DNA of 64,000 nt from Candidatus Nomurabacteria bacterium GW2011_GWD2_36_14 (GTDB lineage Bacteria > Patescibacteriota > Minisyncoccia > Phycocordibacterales > UBA9973): the NCBI GenBank assembly GCA_000991405.1, contig LBRL01000001.1:222172-286171 (forward strand), in the 5' to 3' direction. The notes beneath the pieces were generated by a model. That model did no database searches and was not told the DNA's origin. It saw only the letters and a list, made by a program, of their open reading frames with translations. The position numbers were made by a program, and so were the translations under genes. This document shows positions 10,005-63,299 of the stretch, one piece after another; position 1 is the first letter of the stretch, and each line of letters starts with the position of its first letter.

Positions 10005-11192
10005 ATGCCTAAAATAAACCCAGACATAGAATCATTTGCGAGAATTAAAGTTATCGGTATTGGCGGATCAGGCAAGAATGCCTTAAACCATATGATAGCT
10101 TCCAAAGTTAAAGGTGTGGAATTCATAGTAATGAACACCGACGTGCAGGATCTACACAACTCTTTAGCCGAAAAGAAGGTTCATCTTGGTAAAAACTTAA
10201 CAAAAGGCCTAGGAGCTGGAATGAATCCAGATGTAGGTAAAAGAGCTGCTGAAGAAACAAAAGCAGAAATTCAAGATGTTATAAAGGGTGCTGACATGGT
10301 CTTCATAGCTTGTGGTATGGGAGGAGGTACCGGTACAGGTGCTGCCCCTATCGTTGCTCAAGCAGCCAAAGAACAAGGAATACTGACTGTCGCTGTGGTT
10401 ACCAAGCCATTCTCTTTCGAAGGAAATCAACGTATGAAGTTGGCTGAAGTAGGTCTATCTGAACTTGAAGGTGAAGTAGATGCTATTCTTGTGATTCCAA
10501 ATGATAGACTTATCGTTATCTCTGGAAAAGATGTGGGATTCAGACAAGCTTTCGCACTTTGTGATGAAGTACTCAAGCAAGCAGTTGAAGGTATCTCAGA
10601 ACTTATTACTACTCCGGGTATGATCAACGTGGACTTCGCCGACATCAAGGCTGTCATGTCTGATGCAGGATCAGCTCTCATGGGAGTTGGTATCGCCGCT
10701 GGAGAAGGACGTGCTGAGAAAGCTGCCCTTCAAGCTATCAACTCTCCTCTTCTTGATCTTTCAATTTCTGGGGCTAAGGGAGTTCTCTTTGCTATTTCAG
10801 GTGGAGATGATCTAACTATCCATGAAATCCAAGAAGCAGCCAAGGTTATAACAGAATCTATCGACAAGGAAGCAAAAGTTATCTTTGGAACTATCAGCGA
10901 TGAAAAGCTTAAGAAGGGCGAAATGAAAGTTACTGTTATCGCTACTGGATTCCCTACTGATATGCCAAAGCGTTCACTATTCCAAATCCACCAAAAGGCT
11001 ACTGAAGCTACATTGAACTCTTCCAGTAAAGAAGAAGTTATCCAAGCTGTGAATAAAGAAGTGGCCAAAGATTCTTCATCAGATTATTTTAAAAAGTCAG
11101 ACAAAACTGAAAAAGTAGAAGACGATCTATTTATCGATGATACAGAAGATTGGAGTACAGTACCTGCATTTTTGAGAAGAAATAAGAAATAA
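10005..11192 (+). CDS. ftsZ: Cell division GTPase FtsZ
   Basis: GIGGSGKNA...GGGTGTGAAP tubulin signature. Start set at MPKINP. Confidence 0.95.
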   Translation: MPKINPDIESFARIKVIGIGGSGKNALNHMIASKVKGVEFIVMNTDVQDLHNSLAEKKVHLGKNLTKGLGAGMNPDVGKRAAEETKAEIQDVIKGADMVFIACGMGGGTGTGAAPIVAQAAKEQGILTVAVVTKPFSFEGNQRMKLAEVGLSELEGEVDAILVIPNDRLIVISGKDVGFRQAFALCDEVLKQAVEGISELITTPGMINVDFADIKAVMSDAGSALMGVGIAAGEGRAEKAALQAINSPLLDLSISGAKGVLFAISGGDDLTIHEIQEAAKVITESIDKEAKVIFGTISDEKLKKGEMKVTVIATGFPTDMPKRSLFQIHQKATEATLNSSSKEEVIQAVNKEVAKDSSSDYFKKSDKTEKVEDDLFIDDTEDWSTVPAFLRRNKK

Positions 11193-11195
11193 TTT

Positions 11196-11222
11196 AAAAA
11201 ATCCCCATTTGGGGATTTTTTA
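11196..11222 (+). terminator. Intrinsic terminator after ftsZ
   Basis: aaaaaatccccatttggggatttttt. Confidence 0.7.
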
Positions 11223-11242
11223 AATTATGTTAAACTAGCAAC

Positions 11243-12169: not shown

Positions 12170-12210
12170 ATGAATTTAAAAAGCTCCATAAAAAAATTCT
12201 CGGACTCACC

Positions 12211-12285
12211 ACACAATAAAATTCTGCTGAATTTTTTGCTCGCACTCGGCTCGACAGCCTGCGTGAGGGTTCGCTCGAGAACATT
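12211..12285 (+). repeat. GC-rich intergenic repeat family, copy 1 (orientation A)
   Basis: ...aattctgctgaattttttgctcgcactcggctcgacagcctgcgtgagg... Similar sequence occurs at 13146, 29132 (reverse complement) and 60933 (reverse complement). Confidence 0.7.
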
Positions 12286-12334
12286 TTTATTCCGCTTTTT
12301 AAATTACCCCATAGGCCTTGCCTGTGGGGTAATT

Positions 12335-13096
12335 TTATATATTTTCTTTTACGAGAATTTCTTCAAGAATTTCTAATTCTTGTTTAGAATTTGGTTGGAA
12401 ACCTTCCATTATGTTTGGCATCACAATAGCCTCTACCCTCTTCCCATCTTTTTGAGCTAATTCAACTAAATCGGTAAGGTAATATTCAGTTTGAGTATTT
12501 TCATTTTTTAATTTATTTATATTTTCCCAAAGCCAGCTAGCATCAAATGCATAGAAGGAGGGATTGACTTCTTTTATTTGCCTCTCCTCATTTGTAGCAT
12601 CTTTGTATTCAACAATTTTAAGAACTTGGCCATTTTTATCTCGAATTATTCTACCGAAATTATTAAGCCCAGCTCGCCAATCTTTAAAATCTGGTAAAAT
12701 TATAGTTCCAATAGCTACGACGGCCTTCTTCTCTTTTACAGTCTGAACTAAACTTTCTATTGTTTCTTTAGAAACTAAAGGCTGGTCAGAATATAAAACT
12801 ACAACTATTTTATGATCTGAATGAACCTTCTCTTTAGCCGACAAGACGGCATGACCAGTTCCAAGTTGCTCAGTTTGGTGTGCATAAATACGTTTATCGC
12901 CAAAAACTTCAAATATTCTTTCCTTCTTATACCCAACTACAATAACCGGATCAATAGGAAGATCAATTAATGATAATGTATCGAGTATCCTTTCTAAGAA
13001 TGATTTACCTTGGAGCATTGAGAGGGCTTTGGGATCATCGGACTCCATTCTCTTGCCCATCCCTGCTGCTAAAATAATGATTTGTGTATTTTGCAT
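12335..13096 (-). CDS. Sugar-phosphate nucleotidyltransferase (GlmU N-terminal-domain-like, no acetyltransferase domain)
   Basis: IILAAGMGKRM ... LGTGHAV are nucleotidyltransferase motifs. Confidence 0.65.
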   Translation of the reverse strand: MQNTQIIILAAGMGKRMESDDPKALSMLQGKSFLERILDTLSLIDLPIDPVIVVGYKKERIFEVFGDKRIYAHQTEQLGTGHAVLSAKEKVHSDHKIVVVLYSDQPLVSKETIESLVQTVKEKKAVVAIGTIILPDFKDWRAGLNNFGRIIRDKNGQVLKIVEYKDATNEERQIKEVNPSFYAFDASWLWENINKLKNENTQTEYYLTDLVELAQKDGKRVEAIVMPNIMEGFQPNSKQELEILEEILVKENI

Positions 13097-13145
13097 ATTT
13101 AAATGTGGTCACTTATAATTTTCTGGTGAAAATTTATGCGACCCC

Positions 13146-13173
13146 GCCTCGGCTCGACAGCCTCCGGCTCGCA
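13146..13173 (+). repeat. GC-rich intergenic repeat family, partial/rearranged copy 2, abutting a hairpin and tRNA-Val
   Basis: cctcggctcgacagcctccggctcgcac, followed by the hairpin cgcacaaagtat-tccc-atactttgtgcg. Confidence 0.55.
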
Positions 13174-13193
13174 CAAAGTATTCCCATACTTTG

Positions 13194-13266
13194 TGCGCGA
13201 TAGAGGATTCGAACCTCTGACATCGTCAACGTCAATGACGCGCTCTACCAACTGAGCTAACCGCGC
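13194..13266 (-). tRNA. tRNA-Val (anticodon GAC)
   Basis: Manual cloverleaf fold of the reverse complement: acceptor GCGCGGT/ATCGCGC, anticodon loop TTGACGT, T-arm AGAGGTTCGAATCCTCT. Confidence 0.85.
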
Positions 13267-16851: not shown

Positions 16852-16886
16852 AAGATAATTATACCAAAACCTGAGTTAAATGTCTT

Positions 16887-16930
16887 AAATCCCCTTATCC
16901 TCCCCACAATCCGATTCCAATTTTATGACC
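16887..16930. repeat. Intergenic punctuation repeat R1 (44 bp)
   Basis: aaatccccttatcctccccacaatccgattccaattttatgacc. Confidence 0.7.
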
Positions 16931-16973
16931 TAAAGATATATTTAAATTTTGGAACATTTGCTATAATAAACTT

Positions 16974-17438
16974 ATGAATAAAAAATTTATTGTAGCAATG
17001 ATTAAAGTTGTTACTCTTTGTATTATTATATTTGCAGTCAGTGCTTTCTTTATATCTGATGCAAAGATTATTGGATGGGCAGTATTAGCATTAGGATTAT
17101 TCTGTCTAGTTTCTCTAGAATTTTTCAAAATTCCGATAAAAAATGTATGGCCTGATATAGTCTTTGGTTTAATTGATAATGGTATCTTAGCTATTTTAGC
17201 TGTTATTGGTGGTTCTATTGCAGGTGTAGCTGGAGCGATTATTGGAGGAGTTGTTGGTAACGCTATTACAGATGGAATTGCTGGAGTATTTGAAGGAGAT
17301 ATGGCAGAACGATTAAGAGAGAGTAATATATCTGAGTCAAGAACAATGCTTGGCTCGTCTGTAGGTAAAATGGCTGGATGTCTTTTGGGGGCTGGGGTAG
17401 TGCTAATAATAGCAAATTTAATTAACCCAACTTTGTAG
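16974..17438 (+). CDS. Membrane protein with glycine-zipper segment
   Basis: TM helices plus GGSIAGVAGAIIGGVVGNAITDGIAG. Confidence 0.5.
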   Translation: MNKKFIVAMIKVVTLCIIIFAVSAFFISDAKIIGWAVLALGLFCLVSLEFFKIPIKNVWPDIVFGLIDNGILAILAVIGGSIAGVAGAIIGGVVGNAITDGIAGVFEGDMAERLRESNISESRTMLGSSVGKMAGCLLGAGVVLIIANLINPTL

Positions 17439-17456
17439 TATTTATATTAAATTTCC

Positions 17457-17500
17457 AAAATCCCCTTATATTCCCCACAATTCGATTCCAATTTTAAGCC
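17457..17500. repeat. Intergenic punctuation repeat R2 (44 bp, about 90% identical to R1)
   Basis: aaaatccccttatattccccacaattcgattccaattttaagcc. Confidence 0.7.
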
Positions 17501-17566
17501 TTATCCCCAACACAAAAGCACCCTCGAATTTAAAGGCGCTTTTGTTATGTATAATTTCAATATAAA

Positions 17567-17899
17567 CTATTGGGGCTTGTTTGGATTGATCTTATCTATT
17601 GTATACTGGCCATTGTTTATATGTATTCTACTTTCTCCTAAAGTATTTAGGATTAAATTTAGAATTCCAAACACTGCAACCATTATAAACATTCCAAAAA
17701 TTCCCCAGAACATGTGCTTCTTGCTCGTCTTCTTGATCTCCTCATTGTCAGGAGATATCAAATACTGAAAGAGTCCGTACATGAAGTAAATTACAGCTAA
17801 AGCAAATAGGAACATTATAAGCGGACCTATAATAACCCTATTGATGCTATTCATAAGCGTAGTGACACTTGCCTCTGCAATTGGAAAGATTGAAATCAT
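17567..17899 (-). CDS. VirB2/TrbC-like pilin-type small membrane protein, paralog 1
   Basis: Two hydrophobic helices separated by a short charged loop (LISPDNEEIKKTSKK). Paralogous to the four downstream genes. Confidence 0.55.
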   Translation of the reverse strand: MISIFPIAEASVTTLMNSINRVIIGPLIMFLFALAVIYFMYGLFQYLISPDNEEIKKTSKKHMFWGIFGMFIMVAVFGILNLILNTLGESRIHINNGQYTIDKINPNKPQ

Positions 17900-25720: not shown

Positions 25721-25746
25721 CAGATAGGGGCTCAACCCCTATCTGG
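25721..25746. repeat. REP-like GC hairpin, copy A; the transposase stop codon lies in its loop
   Basis: cagataggggctcaacccctatctgg. Confidence 0.8.
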
Positions 25747-26436
25747 CAAACTCTCTATAACAACATTCAAATTTTCATCTTCAAGAAGAGATTTCTTTCC
25801 TCTTTCTTCTCTCACTATAGAAACTATTTCATCACAATGTTTTTTAAACTTATTTATTCCTCTAAAGATTTCTAAAATTCTTTTCCCTTCTTTTTTAGAT
25901 ATTATATTGAACTTATTATTTTCATACTCAAAATCTCCCGAGAAAACTAAATCACTTTTGTTTTCTGGAATATTATGAATTAAATAATTTTTATTTACAT
26001 AGCCTATCAATTTATTAAAATAATTATCATTAGCTATCAATTGAGATTTAAATCTACCTTGAAATAAAACTCCAGATCTAGTGTTTTTAATATTAAAATA
26101 TGAAGTATAACCACCAGATAACTTATGCATAAATTTAGAAATACCATTATCTGAAACTTGTTTTAAAATCAAATGAAAATGGTTGGGATTTAAACAATAC
26201 CCTACTACTTCCACTAGTGATTCCCCAGATAGGGGCTCAACCCCTATCTGGGGATTTGATTTTAATTTTCGCAAATTTGCTAGACTATTTATTTTATCTT
26301 CTCGATTAAATTCTTTTATGCTTTCGATAAAGCGATAAATATCATTTTTATCAGTAAAAATATCTCGTTTATCTACCCCGCGATTATAAATATGATACAT
26401 CTCTCCTGTTATTAGAGGTTGTCTTCTTATACTCAT
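25732..26436 (-). CDS. IS200/IS605-type HUH Y1 transposase (RAYT-like)
   Basis: MYHIYNRGVDKRDIF, HFHLIL (HUH), GVLFQGRFKS. Contains an in-frame REP hairpin insertion. Confidence 0.75.
   Translation of the reverse strand: MSIRRQPLITGEMYHIYNRGVDKRDIFTDKNDIYRFIESIKEFNREDKINSLANLRKLKSNPQIGVEPLSGESLVEVVGYCLNPNHFHLILKQVSDNGISKFMHKLSGGYTSYFNIKNTRSGVLFQGRFKSQLIANDNYFNKLIGYVNKNYLIHNIPENKSDLVFSGDFEYENNKFNIISKKEGKRILEIFRGINKFKKHCDEIVSIVREERGKKSLLEDENLNVVIESLPDRG
26223..26253. repeat. REP-like GC hairpin, copy B, inside the transposase ORF in frame (encodes PQIGVEPLSGE)
   Basis: ccccagataggggctcaacccctatctgggg. Confidence 0.8.
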
Positions 26437-26463: not shown

Positions 26464-26491
26464 TCCAGATAGGGGTTGAGCCCCTATCTAG
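26464..26491. repeat. REP-like GC hairpin, copy C (inverted orientation)
   Basis: ccagataggggttgagcccctatctagg. Confidence 0.8.
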
Positions 26492-27256: not shown

Positions 27257-28390
27257 ATGAAAAAAGACGAAAATGATGTAGTTTCAAACATCGCAGAACA
27301 TGCAAAAATTGAACTCTCAAGTATTGGTAAAATGCTTGATAAAGCAGAAATTCCACCACAAGTGGATGCTCTAGTAGAAGGCCCTGTAATATCTATACAG
27401 AAGTCTTCAGTCTATATCGACCTAGCCCCTTTTGGGACAGGTATAATATATGGACGTGAATTTATAAATGCAAAAGATATTATCAAAAAGATAAATATTG
27501 GAGATGTTGTGAAGGCTAAAGTTGTCGATACGGACAATGAAGATGGTTACATCGAACTTTCTTTGAAGGAGGCCAAGCAAGCTCTTATATGGAGTGAAGC
27601 CGACAAAGCTATCAAGTCCAAAGTTGCTCTTGAACTTACAGTCAAGGAAGCAAACAAGGGAGGACTTATACTCGACTGGCAAGGTATCGCAGGATTCCTT
27701 CCAGCTTCTCAGCTTAAGAGTGAGCACTACCCTCGCGTAGAAGATTCCGATAAAGATAAAATTTTGAAAGCTTTGAAAATGCTCGTGGGTAAGCGTATCA
27801 GTGTAGTCATGATCTCAGCTCTTCCAAAAGAAGGCAAGCTTATCTTCTCTGAGAAAGACAACAATCCAGAAGAAAGAAAAGAAATTATTGGTAAGTATGG
27901 AGTAAACGACGAGATAGAGTGTACCGTCGCTGGAATTGTAGACTTCGGAGTCTTCCTAAAGGTAGAAGAAGGTCTAGAAGGTCTAGTGCACATATCTGAG
28001 ATTGACTGGGGCCTAGTAGAAGATCCACGTTCAATGTTCAAAGTTGGAGACAAGATAAGAGCTAAAATCATAGATATCAAAGATGGTAAAATATCTCTAT
28101 CTATCAAGGCTCTTAAGGAAAATCCATGGAATGAATTTGAAGGAACACTTAAGAAGGGAGACATCGTTTCTGGAGTCGTTATCAAGTTCAACAAGCATGG
28201 CGCTCTAGTATCTATCAAGCAAGGAGTGGCTGGACTTGTCCACAATTCAAGCTTTGGCTCTGAAGAGAAGCTCAAGAAGACTCTTGAACTAGGCAAGACT
28301 TACAACTTCCAAGTAACACTATTCGAACCAAAAGATCAGAGAATGACTTTAGTGCACCTAGATAGCGAAAAGAAAGTGGAAGAAAAGTAA
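27257..28390 (+). CDS. rpsA: 30S ribosomal protein S1 (short, four S1 domains)
   Basis: Repeated S1 OB-fold modules (GDVVKAKV..., GDKIRAKI..., GDIVSGVV...). Confidence 0.85.
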   Translation: MKKDENDVVSNIAEHAKIELSSIGKMLDKAEIPPQVDALVEGPVISIQKSSVYIDLAPFGTGIIYGREFINAKDIIKKINIGDVVKAKVVDTDNEDGYIELSLKEAKQALIWSEADKAIKSKVALELTVKEANKGGLILDWQGIAGFLPASQLKSEHYPRVEDSDKDKILKALKMLVGKRISVVMISALPKEGKLIFSEKDNNPEERKEIIGKYGVNDEIECTVAGIVDFGVFLKVEEGLEGLVHISEIDWGLVEDPRSMFKVGDKIRAKIIDIKDGKISLSIKALKENPWNEFEGTLKKGDIVSGVVIKFNKHGALVSIKQGVAGLVHNSSFGSEEKLKKTLELGKTYNFQVTLFEPKDQRMTLVHLDSEKKVEEK

Positions 28391-28406
28391 TTAAAAATTA
28401 TGAATT

Positions 28407-28437
28407 AAAAATGCGTTGGCTTTGCCAACGCATTTTT
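28407..28437. terminator. Bidirectional terminator between rpsA and pth
   Basis: aaaaatgcgttggctttgccaacgcattttt. Confidence 0.75.
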
Positions 28438-28470
28438 AATTTCTGTATTTAAATTATTAATTATTAATTC

Positions 28471-29058: not shown

Positions 29059-29131
29059 GTTTTTATATTACCATAATATAAGTTGTTCGTGAAATAAATT
29101 ACTTTTAAGATAAAATTACGAAAACAAAATA

Positions 29132-29205
29132 GTTCTTGAAAAATGCCTCACGCAGGTCGACGGACCGAGTGCGAGCAAAAAATTCAGCAGAATTTTATTG
29201 CGTGG
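29132..29205 (-). repeat. GC-rich intergenic repeat family, copy 3 (orientation B)
   Basis: agttcttgaaaaatgcctcacgcaggtcgacggaccgagtgcgagcaaaaaattcagcagaattttattgcgtgg. Confidence 0.7.
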
Positions 29206-29310
29206 ATTTTGAAAGAAGCTATTTTGTTGAAGTAATTTTATTCGTAATACTACCACACCACACAAAAACATATTCCGTCAAGATAGTTTGTGTGGTAAAA
29301 TGACAGACAT

Positions 29311-35168: not shown

Positions 35169-35205
35169 ATATTACTAATAATAACATAAATAATTTTAAA
35201 TACTA

Positions 35206-35244
35206 AAACAAAAGCGCCACCCGAAGGGTGGCGCTTTTGTTTTA
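35206..35244. terminator. Bidirectional intrinsic terminator
   Basis: aaaacaaaagcgccacccgaagggtggcgcttttgtttt. Confidence 0.8.
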
Positions 35245-35253
35245 GTAATGCTA

Positions 35254-37802: not shown

Positions 37803-37869
37803 TTTTAATAAAATGTTTTAGGCTTAAATTAAAAAATTCTCTATTAAGAGAAAAGATATAGATGACTAG

Positions 37870-37992
37870 TCTTATCTTTCCACCGCGCCTTGCCGTAGCT
37901 TTATGCGTAGGCAGGTTTGTTGGCTGGATTTAGCACCTTGCTTTAGTAGGTTGCTGATGGGTCATTGAGCCAGTTGCTCTCGCCATACTCCT
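37870..37992 (-). promoter_or_regulatory. SAM-I (S-box) riboswitch in the metK leader
   Basis: Reverse complement reads UUAUCAGGAG..GGCGAGAGCAACUGGCUCAAUGACCCAUCAGCAACC...AAGGUGCUAAAUCCAGCC...GGAAAGAUAAGA. P1 pairs UUAUC/GAUAAG. Downstream there is a UUCUCU-UAAU-AGAGAA-U6 terminator-like hairpin. Confidence 0.8.
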
Positions 37993-38108
37993 GATAATTA
38001 ACTATTTAGTTGTAGATAGATTATAGCATAATATTAAAAATTATCTATTTCAGGGTCATTTTACTTTTCTCCCCTTTTTTGTTAATATACGGAAGTGAGT
38101 TTAAACAT

Positions 38109-40195: not shown

Positions 40196-40468
40196 TTAAA
40201 TATTAGAATCTAGAGTTGATTCCCTAGGAGCTGACACTAGGGAATCAACTTTAAGTTCCAATTTTTCTTTTTGTTTATCTTCATAATCAAACTTTGCAAG
40301 CAAGTCAAAAAAAGATGAAAGTTCATTCAACTCTTGAATATTTAATTCTTCTTCTGTTGAGCTATCTAATCTCATTGTTAAAATACTGACGACATATTTT
40401 TTCAATCGTCTTAGATAAGGTAAAATTCTTTTTCTGAGATAACTCAGAAAGTTTCTCGTGTAGATCAA
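40196..40468 (-). CDS. Hypothetical protein (90 aa)
   Basis: ORF only. Confidence 0.35.
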   Translation of the reverse strand: MIYTRNFLSYLRKRILPYLRRLKKYVVSILTMRLDSSTEEELNIQELNELSSFFDLLAKFDYEDKQKEKLELKVDSLVSAPRESTLDSNI

Positions 40469-41313: not shown

Positions 41314-41861
41314 ATTAAAGATAATCTCATTTTTTTAGGTTTTTGTCGACAATTTTTTATTTAATTGAGTCAAAGAAATGCGACCTTTTGCGACCCATTA
41401 TATTTATCGATATTTTATAAGACTCTTTAATCTAATAATTTCTTATTGGAATTAAATATACTTCCACAAAATATCTTGTAAATAAATGACATTCTGATCA
41501 TACCCATACTAAAATACCGAGTTTTGCCTAGTCCTAAAATGCCACCTTTTGCCACCCACTCTTCCCGCCTTTTCCCACCCCTTTTCACCTCTAATACATC
41601 AGACTTTTTCAGACTTTTTATAAAAGAATCTATTTATTGTATTTGTCGACAAAAAGAGCTATTATAAAAATACAACGCCTAAACCAGAAATGGCATGGCT
41701 ACATAGGAAACCCACGCAAATAGTAATGGCCTCACAGTCATCACCATTTGCGTGGGTCCATATTCGAAAGAGTATGGGGTGTTCTCGAAAGAGGATATCA
41801 GATGGTCTGTGGGGCCTTTACTGTCTTCATAACCATATTATAAATTAAAAACCCACGCAAA
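41314..41861. promoter_or_regulatory. AT-rich noncoding region with palindromes and direct repeats (candidate operator/iteron-origin region of the element)
   Basis: TTGTCGACAA palindrome twice (about 41341 and 41643). AAACCCACGCAAA twice, forming a 12-bp inverted repeat at 41710-41762. A CCACC(T)TTT pyrimidine-repeat tract. Confidence 0.5.
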
Positions 41862-45554: not shown

Positions 45555-45677
45555 CTTGTGCAAATCATAATCCGAGAATCTTCGCATGTTAGGAGTAGCA
45601 AGGATGGTCCTTGCTACTCTGTTACTATTCTTCTTTATACCTAAATGATTTTTTATATTATGTTATAATATACTCAT

Positions 45678-45875: not shown

Positions 45876-45980
45876 GTATTAGTTAGTTGTTGTGAATTAT
45901 CAAGGATGGTCTTTGATAGTTTCAGCAAGCAAATGAATTTTAAAAAATAAAACTCGACAAAGTCTGAAACAATGCCGAGT

Positions 45981-46936: not shown

Positions 46937-47087
46937 CTCTTTTTGTTTTTATCTTACCTAAAGAGTAGCAAGGACGATTCTCGTTACTCTTTCTTTCCAC
47001 CCTAGTATCTATATTTTTCAAAAGGTATACACTTAAGACAAATCTACACAAATTCTAAATTTAATTTAACCTACTAAATTTATTATT

Positions 47088-53045: not shown

Positions 53046-53114
53046 ATATTTTGTAAAAAGTTCACATAAAAACTAAATTACAATTAAGAAACGGCCGTTT
53101 CTTAATTGTAATTT

Positions 53115-57044: not shown

Positions 57045-57108
57045 GGTTAGGTTCTAAAAAATACAAAAGGCTCCGACGTACGTCGGAGCCTTTTGTATTT
57101 TTGTTAAA

Positions 57109-60583: not shown

Positions 60584-60679
60584 TTACTTCTTTCCCTTCT
60601 TTGCTTTTTTAGCTACTTTTTTAACTGCCTTTTTAGCTACTTTTTTAACTGCTTTCTTAGCCTTCTTTTTTGCTGCCAT
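60584..60679 (-). CDS. Lys/Ala-rich 31-aa peptide with an internal 24-bp tandem duplication
   Basis: Manual translation MAAKKKAKKAVKKVAKKAVKKVAKKAKKGKK. Confidence 0.4.
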   Translation of the reverse strand: MAAKKKAKKAVKKVAKKAVKKVAKKAKKGKK

Positions 60680-60838: not shown

Positions 60839-60932
60839 CTTTTTTTCTTTTTTTAAAAAAATTTATTTTTAAATTTAATTAATTAAAAAAATATAATAAA
60901 AAATTAATTAGCCCGTATAGATTTTTTATAAT

Positions 60933-61004
60933 AGTTCTTAAGAAATGCCTTGCGCAGGCTGTCGAGCTGAGCAGAGCAAATTTTCAACAGAAAATTATGT
61001 GTGC
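60933..61004 (-). repeat. GC-rich intergenic repeat family, copy 4 (orientation B)
   Basis: agttcttaagaaatgccttgcgcaggctgtcgagctgagcagagcaaattttcaacagaaaattatgtgtgc. Confidence 0.65.
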
Positions 61005-61098
61005 ATTTCGAGAGAAGCTATTAAAAAAATCTAGAACTCTAATATATAGATAGATATGAAAAACACCATGCTTTGGACAAGGTGTTTTTCATATATTT

Positions 61099-61572: not shown

Positions 61573-61679
61573 TACCAAAATGTTATGATATAGAGGTGGC
61601 AGTCGTTGTGTGTTTAAGTCAGCGGCTGCACTCACATATGCAATTGTGTTGGAGGTTAGCACCCGCTGACTTTAGCACA

Positions 61680-61727
61680 TAACAGAAAATCATCTCAAGA
61701 CTTGAGATGATTTTCTGTTATGTATTA
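61680..61727 (-). terminator. Long perfect hairpin, the terminator of the 61728-62975 gene
   Basis: acataacagaaaatcatctcaag-ac-ttgagatgattttctgttatgt. Confidence 0.65.
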
Positions 61728-62975: not shown

Positions 62976-63024
62976 AAAATTAATTTAATATAATAAATAT
63001 ACTATCTATTATAACATTAAAACA

Positions 63025-63060
63025 AAAAACATCTCAATAGCTTGAGATGTTTTTTGTTTT
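63025..63060. terminator. Bidirectional terminator-like hairpin in the 16S trailer, upstream of the 62975 gene
   Basis: aaaacatctcaatagcttgagatgtttttt. It shares CATCTCAAnnnTTGAGATG with the hairpin at 61700. Confidence 0.55.
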
Positions 63061-63299
63061 GTATTTATATAGTTTGTACCCCCACACCCATATTTTTATA
63101 ACTGTTTACAGCGAAGATTTTAATCTTCAATAAAAATATAAGTGTGGGGGTGTATCAATAATCCATTTAAGTAAAGCACTCTTTCTTTTGTTCCGTCCTA
63201 CAGGTCTTTCCCTTGTTGTCAGATTTCTTTTAGGACTTAAAATCAATGTCCATTGTGTAGTCAATTGAGCTACACAATATCGACTCAATAAGATCGTCT

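What the first reader, a model, noticed from the sequence alone, without database searches (positions are those of the whole stretch)
12211..12285. GC-rich ~70-bp intergenic repeat family with apparently compensatory substitutions (copies at 12.2, 13.1, 29.1, 60.9 kb)
- The four copies are at 12211-12285 (one orientation), 29132-29205 and 60933-61004 (opposite orientation), and 13146-13173 (partial/rearranged).
- They share ...AATTCTGCTGAATTTTTTGCTCGCACTCGG-[GGYY CGNC RRCC]-CCTGCGYRAGGCATTT..TTCTTRAGAACT.
- The central mini-hairpin varies as GGTC..GACC / GGCT..AGCC / AGCT..AGCC. Flanking trinucleotides vary as CAC..GTG versus TGC..GCA, which preserves pairing.
- The copies are intergenic: between trxB and a convergent gene, abutting tRNA-Val, in the pth/lepB divergent region, and between the secA upstream ORF and rnpB.
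- They are strongly GC-enriched relative to the genome.
- Candidates are a structured small RNA family, a REP-like element recognised by the nearby RAYT, or transcription or replication punctuation.
Basis: seen in the sequence. Interest (0 to 1): 0.65.

Follow-up and report, generated by a model that had tools for sequence, protein, structure and literature searches.

The report
Palindromic intergenic DNA repeat of Parcubacteria
The four GC-rich "repeats" are copies of a previously undescribed 115-135 bp hairpin-shaped DNA repeat found across many Parcubacteria (candidate phyla radiation); it has a strongly conserved two-hairpin head on long, site-specific inverted-repeat arms, and it behaves like a fast-moving selfish or recombining element rather than a small-RNA gene.

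Summary
The window holds four copies, and the "partial" one at 13.1 kb is a full, divergent copy.

**Architecture.** Each copy has 25-37 bp arms. The arms differ in sequence between copies but always pair. They close a conserved 57-63 nt head made of two hairpins, P2 and P3, at a three-way junction.

**Distribution.** The head occurs in at least 49 loci of about 40 Parcubacteria/Paceibacteria genomes and in more than 112 metagenome contigs. It is absent from Rfam, IMG/VR, phage and plasmid collections, and from the searchable literature.

**Pairing.** Covariation is abundant: P3b has about 10 Watson-Crick variants. G·U pairs are no commoner than A·C mismatches (about 1% each), against 5.5% G·U in tRNA stems of the same contigs.

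**Genomic behaviour.**
- Copies lie in every type of spacer with only a weak orientation preference.
- Density reaches 6 copies per 8 kb.
- Copies form adjacent inverted pairs.
- Near-identical strains and close relatives differ by presence/absence, inversion or replacement at the same site.
- The 6-10 bp just outside the conserved unit are inverted repeats unique to each site, not direct ones.

**Best reading (0.6).** A REP/REPIN/ERIC/MITE-like DNA element read as a DNA hairpin and lodged at palindromic, terminator-like spacers. The mobilising enzyme is unknown.

A link to the nearby Y1 (RAYT-like) gene is not supported. A dedicated sRNA is not excluded (about 0.17).

The parts
12173..12209 (+). 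Copy A, 5' arm (type-A arm: AATTTAAAAAGC-TCC-ATAAAAA..TTCTCGGACTCAC)
   Evidence: It pairs with 12269-12305 (I20). The same arm sequence occurs in L002, L009, L012, L037, L042, L044, L046 and L053.
12210..12268 (+). Copy A, conserved head: junction CAC, P2 hairpin (CAA-T-AAAATTC TGCT GAATTTT-TTG) and P3 hairpin (CTCGCAC-TC-GGCT CGAC AGCC-TGC-GTGAGG)
   Evidence: The pattern matches at 12222-12268. The CM R1 hit at 12197-12280 scores 71.8 bits.
12269..12305 (+). Copy A, 3' arm
   Evidence: It is complementary to 12173-12209.
13097..13181 (+). Copy D, a divergent full copy (head about 13110-13172). It abuts the NTP-transferase (glmU-like) start codon at 13096 and the hairpin at 13171-13196 that overlaps the tRNA-Val 3' end.
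   Evidence: R1 scores 41.2 bits, E=3e-8. The whole 96-nt block is absent in the relative L053 (95% amino-acid identity), where tRNA-Val ends 1 nt before the ATG.
29110..29145 (-). Copy B, 3' arm
   Evidence: It pairs with 29205-29241 (I1; I19).
29146..29204 (-). Copy B, conserved head (same long-type head as copy A, with B/C-type arms)
   Evidence: The pattern matches at 29146-29192. R1 scores 77.3 bits.
29205..29241 (-). Copy B, 5' arm (..ATAGCTTCTTTCAAAATC)
60918..60947 (-). Copy C, 3' arm (GCATTTCTTAAGAACTAT..)
   Evidence: I10.
60948..61003 (-). Copy C, conserved head (short type: CAC-ACATAATTTTC TGTT GAAAATTTG-CTCTGC-TC-AGCT CGAC AGCC-TGC-GCAAGG)
   Evidence: The pattern matches at 60948-60992. 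R1 scores 93.4 bits.
61004..61033 (-). Copy C, 5' arm (TAGATTTTTTTAATAGCTTCTCTCGAAATG)
   Evidence: I10. In strain variant L059, with 100% identical flanks, this whole segment is replaced by a different element in the opposite orientation.

Best explanation
This is a family of 115-135 bp palindromic intergenic DNA repeats specific to the Parcubacteria group (GTDB Paceibacteria) of the candidate phyla radiation.

**What it is**
- Each copy is one long hairpin-forming unit with two inverted-repeat arms.
- The inner 15-35 nt of the arms fall into a few subfamily types. The outermost 6-20 bp are unique to each site.
- The arms close a strongly conserved 57-63 nt head. The head is a single-stranded CAC junction followed by an A/T-rich hairpin P2, which carries a conserved bulged T and a UGCU-type loop. 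Next comes a G/C-rich hairpin P3 with a conserved internal loop and a CGNC loop.

**How it most likely works**
- The structure is read at the DNA level, as single-stranded DNA or an extruded cruciform, by an enzyme that is still unidentified.
- The element behaves as a non-autonomous mobile or recombining element of the REP/REPIN/ERIC/MITE kind. It is gained, lost, inverted and swapped at spacers next to gene ends.
- It most likely lands at the centre of short palindromic, terminator-like sequences. Transposition or gene conversion between copies then homogenises the heads within a genome.

**Shown versus inferred**
- Shown: the repeat family, its architecture, Watson-Crick-only covariation, its breadth, its turnover and its lack of strict orientation.
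- Inferred: the DNA-level reading, targeting of palindrome centres, and the existence of a trans-acting enzyme.
For: **1. Family and breadth**
- The window holds 4 copies.
- There are 49 loci in about 40 species-representative genomes labelled Nomura-, Zambryski-, Yonath-, Azambacteria, Paceibacteria and RAAC4_OD1_1. These are distinct NCBI candidate phyla of the Parcubacteria group.
- The model found 62 hits in those loci. It found 109 more in 100 of the 112 metagenome contigs retrieved.

**2. Structure**
- P1 has 25-37 bp in nearly every copy, with unrelated sequences.
- Fold z-scores are -4 to -7.6 with RNA or DNA parameters, on either strand.
- 94% of cells are paired, against 80% in shuffles, and 15 of 23 pairs show double changes.
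- RNAalifold independently recovers P2 and P3.
- P3b occurs as UUC:GAA, CGC:GCG, UGC:GCA, UCC:GGA, CAC:GUG, CUC:GAG, UAC:GUA and others.

**3. DNA-like pairing**
- Head helices show 1266 Watson-Crick, 11 G·T and 16 A·C pairs.
- Arms show 1674 Watson-Crick, 12 G·T and 37 A·C pairs.
- tRNA stems in the same contigs hold 5.5% G·U.

**4. No dedicated transcription signals**
- No shared promoter or terminator motif was found.
- The arms start 0-15 nt from stop codons.

**5. Orientation and context**
- In tandem spacers, 32 copies are co-oriented with the genes and 22 are opposed.
- 23 copies are in convergent spacers and 12 in divergent ones.
- Background spacers are 15% convergent.
- L036 has six copies in 8 kb, in both orientations, within one gene string.
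- Adjacent inverted pairs occur in L002, L036 and L037.

**6. Turnover**
- Upstream of tRNA-Cys the site is empty in L005, holds a (-) copy in L014/L040 and a (+) copy in L024.
- The dnaK-dnaJ spacer holds a (+) copy in L013, a (-) copy in L033 and L035, and a head-less hairpin in L008. L008 is 97% identical to L033 in DnaK at the amino-acid level.
- In the relative with 95% amino-acid identity (L053), site D is absent. Site A there carries the same arms, but the element is inverted and has a different head.
- The strain variant L059 has 100% identical flanks but a different, oppositely oriented element at site C.

**7. Unit boundaries**
- Four related L036 copies share sequence exactly from ATAG to CTAT.
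- The 6-10 bp outside that unit are site-specific inverted repeats.

**8. Within-genome homogenisation and modularity**
- All five copies from MAG CAZQAW01 share the head variant CACGACAU on different arms.
- Window copies A and B share 36 identical head bases on different arm types.
Against: - No transposase, target-site duplication or autonomous partner was found.
- No clean filled-versus-empty pair was found in which the empty site equals the joined flanks. Insertion into pre-existing palindromes is therefore an inference.
- Near-invariance of the unpaired junction and loops across very divergent genomes (36-65% GC contexts) is unusual for selfish repeats. It would also fit a functional RNA or a host protein-binding site.
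- The element shows a weak bias toward co-orientation with the upstream gene. Summed over, 68 copies are co-oriented and 42 are not.
- Sampling used exact patterns that fixed parts of the head, so conservation of those positions is partly imposed.
- The metagenome pattern by mistake excluded the commonest short head type.
- No expression data could be consulted.
Confidence: 0.6

Rival explanations
1. The element is a structured RNA. It could be a small RNA family or a cis-acting mRNA element, such as a 3'-end stabiliser, an RNase III or other processing site, or a protein-recruiting terminator module. The three-way-junction head would act as RNA after read-through transcription from neighbouring genes.
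For: - Covariation is strong in P1, P2 and P3.
- The unpaired junction and loops are highly conserved.
- Predicted RNA folds are very stable.
- Copies sit next to gene 3' ends, tRNA genes and rnpB.
- There is a mild bias toward co-orientation with the upstream gene, 68 versus 42.
Against: - G·U pairs are as rare as A·C mismatches (about 1%), against 5.5% G·U in tRNA stems of the same contigs.
- About 40% of copies would be transcribed antisense.
- Both orientations occur inside one co-directional gene string.
- There is no shared promoter or terminator.
- Copy number ranges from a few per genome to 6 per 8 kb.
- Close relatives differ by presence/absence and inversion at the same site.
- No Rfam family matches, even at E up to 10.
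Confidence: 0.17
2. The element is a REP/REPIN in the strict sense. It would be mobilised by the Y1 (RAYT-like) transposase encoded at 25732-26436, which would recognise the head hairpins with the bulged T.
For: - A Y1_Tnp ORF is present in the window.
- HUH/Y1 enzymes act on ssDNA hairpins and create no target duplication, which matches the missing duplication.
- P2 has a conserved extrahelical T. By general knowledge, this recalls the IS608 subterminal hairpins.
- The variant strain L059 carries a second Y1 gene about 3 kb from the swapped element.
Against: - The Y1 gene is flanked by its own, unrelated palindromes (AGATAG-stem-loop-stem-CTATCT). These form a separate family that is also seen in L004, L089 and L145.
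- No element copy flanks the Y1 gene.
- Only one of the other 173 fetched loci (1.16 Mb), L059, encodes a homolog.
- The ATAG box of one subfamily is not general: 24 of 103 copies have it, against 19 for a control motif.
- Orientation is mixed locally (L036), unlike the replication-strand bias expected for IS200/IS605-type insertion.
Confidence: 0.1
3. The element is a host-domesticated DNA site rather than a mobile one. The head would be a binding site for a Parcubacteria-specific protein, sitting on palindromic bidirectional terminators. Candidate roles are termination, nucleoid organisation, priming or recombination. It would spread and be exchanged only by homologous recombination after natural transformation.
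For: - The head is conserved across candidate phyla.
- The arms resemble the many head-less perfect palindromes of 19-33 bp in the window's spacers.
- The L057/L059 difference looks like a recombination tract, with SNPs at its edge.
- Convergent spacers are enriched: 26% of elements against 15% of background spacers.
Against: - Copy density varies enormously between genomes.
- Copies occur adjacent to or nested in each other.
- Copies also sit in divergent promoter regions, between tRNA genes and between dnaK and dnaJ.
- Close relatives do without particular copies.
Confidence: 0.13

Closest known systems
REP / BIME / REPIN elements with RAYT (Y1, HUH) transposases of Proteobacteria
   Same: - They are extragenic imperfect palindromes near gene ends.
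- They occur in both orientations and in clusters of inverted neighbours.
- They make no target-site duplication.
- Hairpin pairing is kept by compensatory changes.
- Copy number varies between genomes.
- A Y1-family gene exists in the same genome.
   Different: - In REPINs the conserved part is the stem (the REP) and the loop is free. Here the apex is conserved and the stem is free.
- There is no GTAG-type 5' box.
- The element does not flank the Y1 gene, which has its own palindromes.
- The head is conserved across candidate phyla, not species-specific.
ERIC / IRU (enterobacterial repetitive intergenic consensus, about 127 bp)
   Same: - It is a long imperfect palindrome of similar size, restricted to spacers, in either orientation.
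- It is present or absent at the same locus in related species.
- Its sequence is conserved over wide taxonomic distance.
- No transposase is known for it.
   Different: - There is no sequence similarity (comparison from memory; ERIC is not in the tools' libraries).
- ERIC is conserved along its whole length and has no three-way-junction head on variable arms.
- ERIC's constraint is thought to act on RNA. Here the pairing statistics look DNA-like.
Bacterial MITEs (Correia/NEMIS, RUP, BOX, bcr1)
   Same: They are small non-autonomous repeats with inverted ends that fold into stable hairpins. They insert near genes, occur in bursts (6 per 8 kb in L036) and insert next to or into each other.
   Different: - MITE terminal inverted repeats are conserved and are flanked by direct target duplications. 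Here the outermost arms are site-specific and the flanks are inverted repeats, not direct ones.
- No autonomous IS with the same ends was seen.
IS1397/ISKpn1 and IS110-family elements that insert into palindromic repeats; HUH enzymes that cut hairpin loops
   Same: They target the loop or centre of pre-existing palindromes. This is the behaviour inferred here from the site-specific inverted flanks.
   Different: Those are full insertion sequences that encode their enzyme. Here only a unit of about 60-100 nt is seen, and targeting is inferred rather than shown.
Integron attC sites
   Same: They are structured as folded single-stranded DNA. Their sequence is variable but their shape is conserved, and they lie at gene 3' ends.
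   Different: - attC conserves the outer R/L boxes and varies the centre, which is the opposite of this element.
- attC sites occur in one orientation in cassette arrays next to intI.
- None of this is seen here, where the neighbours are housekeeping genes in both orientations.

Membership tests
REP/REPIN-RAYT system | The repeats flank the cognate RAYT gene | tested here: not met
   The Y1_Tnp ORF at 25732-26436 is flanked by AGATAGGGGCTCAACCCCTATCT palindromes, not by this element. The nearest copy is about 2.7 kb away.
REP/REPIN-RAYT system | A conserved 5' tetranucleotide (GTAG-like) next to a short conserved hairpin; in REPINs the conserved sequence forms the stem | tested here: not met
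   There is no general box: ATAG occurs in 24 of 103 5' arms, against 19 for the control motif GATA. The conserved part is the apex, and the stems vary.
REP/REPIN-RAYT system | Co-occurrence of the repeat family with a RAYT in the same genomes | not testable with these tools
   Only stretches of at most about 20 kb around matches could be read. Only 1 of the other 173 loci (1.16 Mb in all) encodes a homolog.
MITE | Conserved terminal inverted repeats shared by all copies | tested here: inconclusive
   Inner arms are conserved within subfamilies, for example ATAGCTCTTC.../...AAGACTAT and the type-A arms. They differ between subfamilies. In some genomes the arms share only short motifs.
MITE | Direct target-site duplication | tested here: not met
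   Flanks just outside the unit are inverted complements, for example TTTGGA|unit|TCCAAA and CTTCTTCAA|unit|TTGAAGAAG. They are not direct repeats.
MITE | A related autonomous element that encodes the transposase | tested here: not met
   Nearly all of the roughly 170 head copies found have a local partner arm, and none flanks an ORF. Only the fetched loci were searched.
Structured non-coding RNA family | Covariation that preserves base pairs | tested here: met
Structured non-coding RNA family | G·U wobble tolerated and much commoner than A·C on the functional strand | tested here: not met
   The head shows 11 G·T versus 16 A·C, and the arms 12 versus 37. The tRNA control shows 5.5% G·U.
Structured non-coding RNA family | Consistent strand relative to a promoter, terminator or host gene | tested here: not met
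   In tandem spacers 32 copies are co-oriented and 22 opposed. Both orientations occur in one gene string. There are no shared signals.
Structured non-coding RNA family | Transcription as a discrete RNA | not testable with these tools
   No expression data were available.
Any Rfam family | Score at or above the family's gathering threshold | tested here: not met
   No hit at the copies at gathering thresholds. In two scans at E up to 10, covering copies A and C, the only matches were spurious miRNA/lncRNA families far below their gathering thresholds.
Integron attC | Conserved outer R''/R' boxes, one orientation, cassette array next to intI | tested here: not met
   Outer arms vary and the centre is conserved. 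Orientations are mixed. Neighbours are housekeeping genes.

The most novel reading that the evidence does not exclude
The conserved three-way-junction head could be the recognition module of a new kind of structure-specific mobile DNA. It would be a unit of about 60-100 nt that homes to the tips of palindromic (terminator) hairpins in single-stranded or cruciform DNA. The enzyme moving it would be undescribed, or a host factor confined to Parcubacteria. Such a unit would shape intergenic architecture and transcription ends in some of the smallest known bacterial genomes.
Probability: 0.25. Interest if true: 0.8.

Novelty: new variant of a known kind. Interest (0 to 1): 0.55.

Why it matters
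Candidate-phyla-radiation bacteria have tiny, streamlined genomes with median spacers of 30-70 nt. They are thought to carry little repetitive or selfish DNA. This element adds about 130 bp wherever it sits.

Its head is kept almost unchanged across several candidate phyla, while its arms and its presence at a given site turn over between strains. Three consequences follow:
- It is a ready marker for strain-level variation and recombination in uncultivated Parcubacteria.
- It points to an unknown enzyme that recognises a DNA three-way junction.
- It offers a test case for how palindromic terminators are colonised.

It is also a caution for RNA-motif discovery. Covariation plus GC enrichment in an AT-rich genome looked like an sRNA, but the G·U versus A·C balance argues for a DNA structure.

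Tried and rejected
- **Rfam.** I scanned the whole window at gathering thresholds, and copies A and C at E up to 10. Nothing credible matched.
- **Known ribozymes and RNAs.** By inspection, hammerhead, twister, 6S, SRP, Y-RNA and tRNA-like readings fail. The junction sequences and architecture do not fit, and no Rfam hit supports them.
- **Coding potential.** The ORFs across copies A and B (NKILLNFLLALG..) are by-products of shared DNA. Copy C has a stop and frame shifts.
- **Virus, plasmid and phage origin.** There were 0 hits in IMG/VR, PLSDB and INPHARED.
- **Literature.** Four searches for Patescibacteria or Parcubacteria with RNA motif, MITE or REP returned nothing relevant.
- **RAYT association.** The window's Y1 protein had its only homolog in 1.16 Mb of element-bearing loci in L059, a strain variant of the source genome. 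The ATAG box idea failed its control.
- **Promoter and terminator scan.** No shared signals were found. A -10-like CATAAT/TATAAT in the junction/P2 region has no consistent -35.
- **Arm copied from the end of the neighbouring gene.** In the clearest case (L084, map) only a non-conserved 4-codon tail lies in the arm. The ORF therefore reads into the element rather than the reverse.
- **Search for an empty allele of sites A, B and C among strains of the source organism.** Sites A and B were filled in all contigs shown. Site C held a replaced allele, not an empty one.
- **An error of mine.** The metagenome pattern used N{12,15} between P2 and CTCGG. This excludes the commonest head, which has 11 nt there. 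That scan therefore sampled mainly divergent subfamilies.
- **A discarded count.** My first spacer-type count lost many elements to spurious ORFs. I used it only for the background spacer frequencies.

Full report

Yes. Copies A and B match over 83 nt at 82% (I1). A degenerate 47-nt pattern hits exactly those three sites and none of 100 dinucleotide shuffles.

Two corrections are needed:
- The elements are longer than reported. In each copy the non-homologous flanks pair with each other into a long outer stem. The units span 12173-12305 (+), 29110-29241 (-) and 60918-61033 (-). Fold z-scores are -4 to -7.6 on either strand, with RNA or DNA parameters.
- The "partial" copy is a complete, divergent fourth copy at 13097-13181 (+). 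It scores 41 bits, E=3e-8, and keeps both head hairpins with other sequences.

**2. Anatomy**

- The arms (P1) are 25-37 bp.
- They close a head of 57-63 nt. The head is an unpaired CAC(R) junction followed by hairpin P2 and then directly by hairpin P3.
- P2 has 9-10 A/T-rich pairs, a conserved bulged T on the 5' side and a UGCU-type loop.
- P3 has an outer part with a conserved U·G next to C·A, a 3-bp helix P3b, a conserved UC/UGC internal loop, a 4-bp helix P3c and a CGNC loop.
- On 52 sequences my hand-drawn structure gives 94% paired cells, against 80% in shuffles and at most 60% when partners are slid. 15 of 23 pairs show double changes.
- RNAalifold finds P2 and P3 on its own.
- In 95 unique heads, P3b occurs as UUC:GAA, CGC:GCG, UGC:GCA, UCC:GGA, CAC:GUG, CUC:GAG, UAC:GUA and more. 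The lower part of P2 occurs as CAA:UUG, GCG:CGC, GCA:UGC, GAA:UUC, CCA:UGG and others, always with the bulged T.
- Some relatives carry a second P2-like hairpin.

**3. Where else is it?**

- The window comes from a groundwater Nomurabacteria-like organism. The same contig is ENA ANAN16-1 scaffold_3, 800,830 bp.
- An exact-pattern scan of one genome per species found 49 loci in about 40 MAGs. They are labelled Nomura-, Zambryski-, Yonath-, Azambacteria, Paceibacteria/-ota, Minisyncoccia and RAAC4_OD1_1. In NCBI taxonomy these are separate candidate phyla of the Parcubacteria group. Some TPA assemblies are labelled Saccharibacteria, which I could not verify.
- A covariance model (R1) found 62 copies in those loci, including 6 in the 8 kb of L036.
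These held 109 further, more divergent copies.
- Nothing matched in Rfam, IMG/VR, plasmids or phages. Four literature searches found nothing relevant.

**4. RNA or DNA?**

Four lines of evidence argue against a dedicated RNA.

Pairing statistics:
- Head helices hold 1266 Watson-Crick pairs, 11 G·T and 16 A·C.
- Arms hold 1674 Watson-Crick, 12 G·T and 37 A·C, partly inflated by shared ancestry.
- tRNA stems on the same contigs hold 5.5% G·U (99 of 1789).
- A functional RNA should tolerate G·U far better than A·C on its own strand. Here neither strand shows that. Complementarity appears to be required as such, as in a DNA hairpin or cruciform, or as produced by templated correction of quasi-palindromes.

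Orientation:
- In tandem spacers, copies co-oriented versus opposed to the genes number 11:13 in the genome set and 21:9 in the metagenome set. Together that is 32:22.
- Counting only the upstream gene gives 68:42. A weak bias therefore exists, but about 40% of copies would be read antisense.
- In L036 the six copies alternate in orientation inside one string of minus-strand genes.

Transcription signals:
- No shared promoter or U-tract terminator is present.
- The arms usually begin 0-15 nt from the neighbouring stop or start codons, leaving no room for outside signals.

Copy number:
- Density ranges from a few copies per genome to one per spacer.

**5. Turnover**

- *Upstream of tRNA-Cys.* L005/L034 have a 28-nt spacer without the element. 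L014/L040 have it on one strand, with different outer arms. L024 has it on the other strand.
- *dnaK-dnaJ spacer.* L013 has a (+) copy. L033 and L035 have (-) copies. L008 shares 97% DnaK identity with L033, yet has only a 25-bp head-less hairpin with unrelated arms.
- *Closest relative of the window organism* (L053, GCA_003542455.1, 95% identity in the NTP-transferase). Site D is absent there, and tRNA-Val ends 1 nt before the ATG. Site A carries the same type-A arms (1 difference in about 65 nt). However, the whole element is inverted relative to trxB and the NTP-transferase gene. Its head also differs at about 15 positions, all compensated.
- *A relative at 71% identity* (L054). It has a plain bidirectional terminator at site A.
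- *A second strain from the same study* (L059). It is 100% identical over more than 400 nt on each side, including rnpB. It carries a different, oppositely oriented element at site C. A few SNPs at the edge of the roughly 210-nt replaced tract suggest import by recombination.
- *L037 versus L046.* The type-A copy is inverted relative to the genes, and L037 has a second element wrapped around or next to it.

**6. What moves, and where does it land?**

- Within L036, four related copies share sequence exactly from ATAG to CTAT (about 97 nt). Similarity stops there. The next 6-10 bp on the two sides are complementary to each other and different at every site.
- The same holds for the B/C-type and type-A copies in other genomes.
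- These flanks are inverted repeats, not direct ones. For example, CTTCTTCAA|unit|TTGAAGAAG. They are therefore not target-site duplications.
- Head types and arm types are mixed. The long head GCUCGCAC..GUGAGG sits on type-A arms in copy A and on B/C arms in copy B. Type-A arms carry short heads in L012, L031 and L053.
- All five copies of MAG CAZQAW01 share the private head variant CACGACAU on arms that share only short motifs.
- The window's spacers also contain many head-less perfect palindromes of 19-33 bp with 0-4 nt loops. Examples are 11189-11228, 35201-35247, 53075-53114, 57057-57102 and 61677-61723.
- The simplest reading has two parts. First, the unit lands at the centre of such palindromes, whose tips are single-stranded when extruded. 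Second, heads are homogenised within a genome by transposition or gene conversion.
- This is an inference. I did not find an empty allele identical to the joined flanks.
- Elements are about 1.8-fold enriched in convergent spacers: 26% against 15% of background spacers. They also occur in divergent spacers (copy B), between tRNA genes and between dnaK and dnaJ.

**7. The nearby RAYT**

- The ORF at 25732-26436 does match Pfam Y1_Tnp (29 bits, cutoff 23).
- It is bracketed, and interrupted in frame, by its own palindrome AGATAGGGGCTCAACCCCTATCT.
- The same design with other stems occurs in L004, L089 and L145. That is a separate REP-like family.
- The only homolog of this protein among the other 173 fetched loci (1.16 Mb) is a 37%-identical gene in L059. 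L059 is a strain variant of the source genome, and the gene lies just after its secA.
- The ATAG box of one subfamily is not general.
- The bulged T in P2 and the lack of target duplication fit an HUH-type enzyme only by analogy with IS608, which I recall from general knowledge.

**8. Verdict**

- The finding is real and, as far as these tools show, undescribed.
- It is best filed as a new variant of the intergenic palindromic repeats (REP/REPIN, ERIC, MITE). Its inverted logic is unusual: a conserved three-way-junction apex on free arms.
- It is not a member of REP/RAYT, classical MITEs, attC or any Rfam family, because defining features were tested and not met.
- A dedicated structured RNA is not excluded (about 0.17), but the G·U/A·C balance, the orientation data and the turnover disfavour it.
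- Interest is moderate to high (0.55). The head's conservation across candidate phyla in streamlined genomes implies a specific, unknown reader. The mechanism remains inferred.

Noticed in passing
window 25722-25744, 26227-26249, 26467-26489 and ORF 25732-26436 (-): A Y1_Tnp (IS200-like/RAYT-like) ORF of 234 aa is bracketed by AGATAGGGGCTCAACCCCTATCT palindromes, with a third copy inside the reading frame. The same AGATAG-stem-loop-stem-CTATCT design with other stems occurs in L004:5452, L089:3568, L145:5681 and L034:5133. This looks like a separate REP-like family with covarying stems.
   Followed up: partly
L059:5707-6096 (strain variant of the window organism): A 37%-identical second Y1-like gene sits directly after secA in the variant strain. 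The window-like strain has a glucosaminidase-like gene further downstream instead. This is strain-level gain or loss of Y1 genes.
   Followed up: no
window 41676-41799 (+) and 37869-38000 (-): Rfam hits above gathering score: LOOT RNA (60.8 bits) and a SAM riboswitch (48.9 bits). The LOOT hit lies in a 28-30% GC stretch at 40-48 kb.
   Followed up: no
window 11189-11228, 28388-28456, 35201-35247, 40198-40266, 53075-53114, 57057-57102, 61677-61723, 63010-63069: Spacers contain many long perfect or near-perfect palindromes (19-33 bp arms, 0-9 nt loops) without the conserved head. They are probably bidirectional terminators, though unusually long and perfect for that role.
   Followed up: partly
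window 16876-16932 and 17447-17503: Two 57-nt direct repeats (84% identical) flank a 154-aa ORF (16974-17438) that has no clear family. A T4SS-pilin-like ORF lies next to it at 17567-17899.
   Followed up: no
window 45593-45620, 45895-45922, 46963-46990: Three copies of a 28-nt hairpin repeat (GAGTAGCAAGG..CCTTGCTACTC) lie in the low-GC region among small ORFs of unknown function.
   Followed up: no
window 60584-60679 (-): A 31-aa Lys/Ala-rich ORF (MAAKKKAKKAVKKV...) is built on a 12-nt tandem repeat just upstream of secA. Gene callers annotate it in at least 80 public contigs.
   Followed up: no
L008:5723-5800: The dnaK-dnaJ spacer of L008 has a 25-bp head-less hairpin whose apex reads GAAATGC-ATTAATT-GCTTTC. 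This resembles the inner arms of the B/C-type element (GAAATGC-head-GCATTTC). It may be a remnant after loss of the head.
   Followed up: partly
window 13171-13196: The hairpin GCACAAAGTAT-TCCC-ATACTTTGTGC overlaps the last 4 nt of tRNA-Val. It competes with the short P1 of copy D for the CACAAAG segment. The whole block is missing in the 95%-identical relative.
   Followed up: partly
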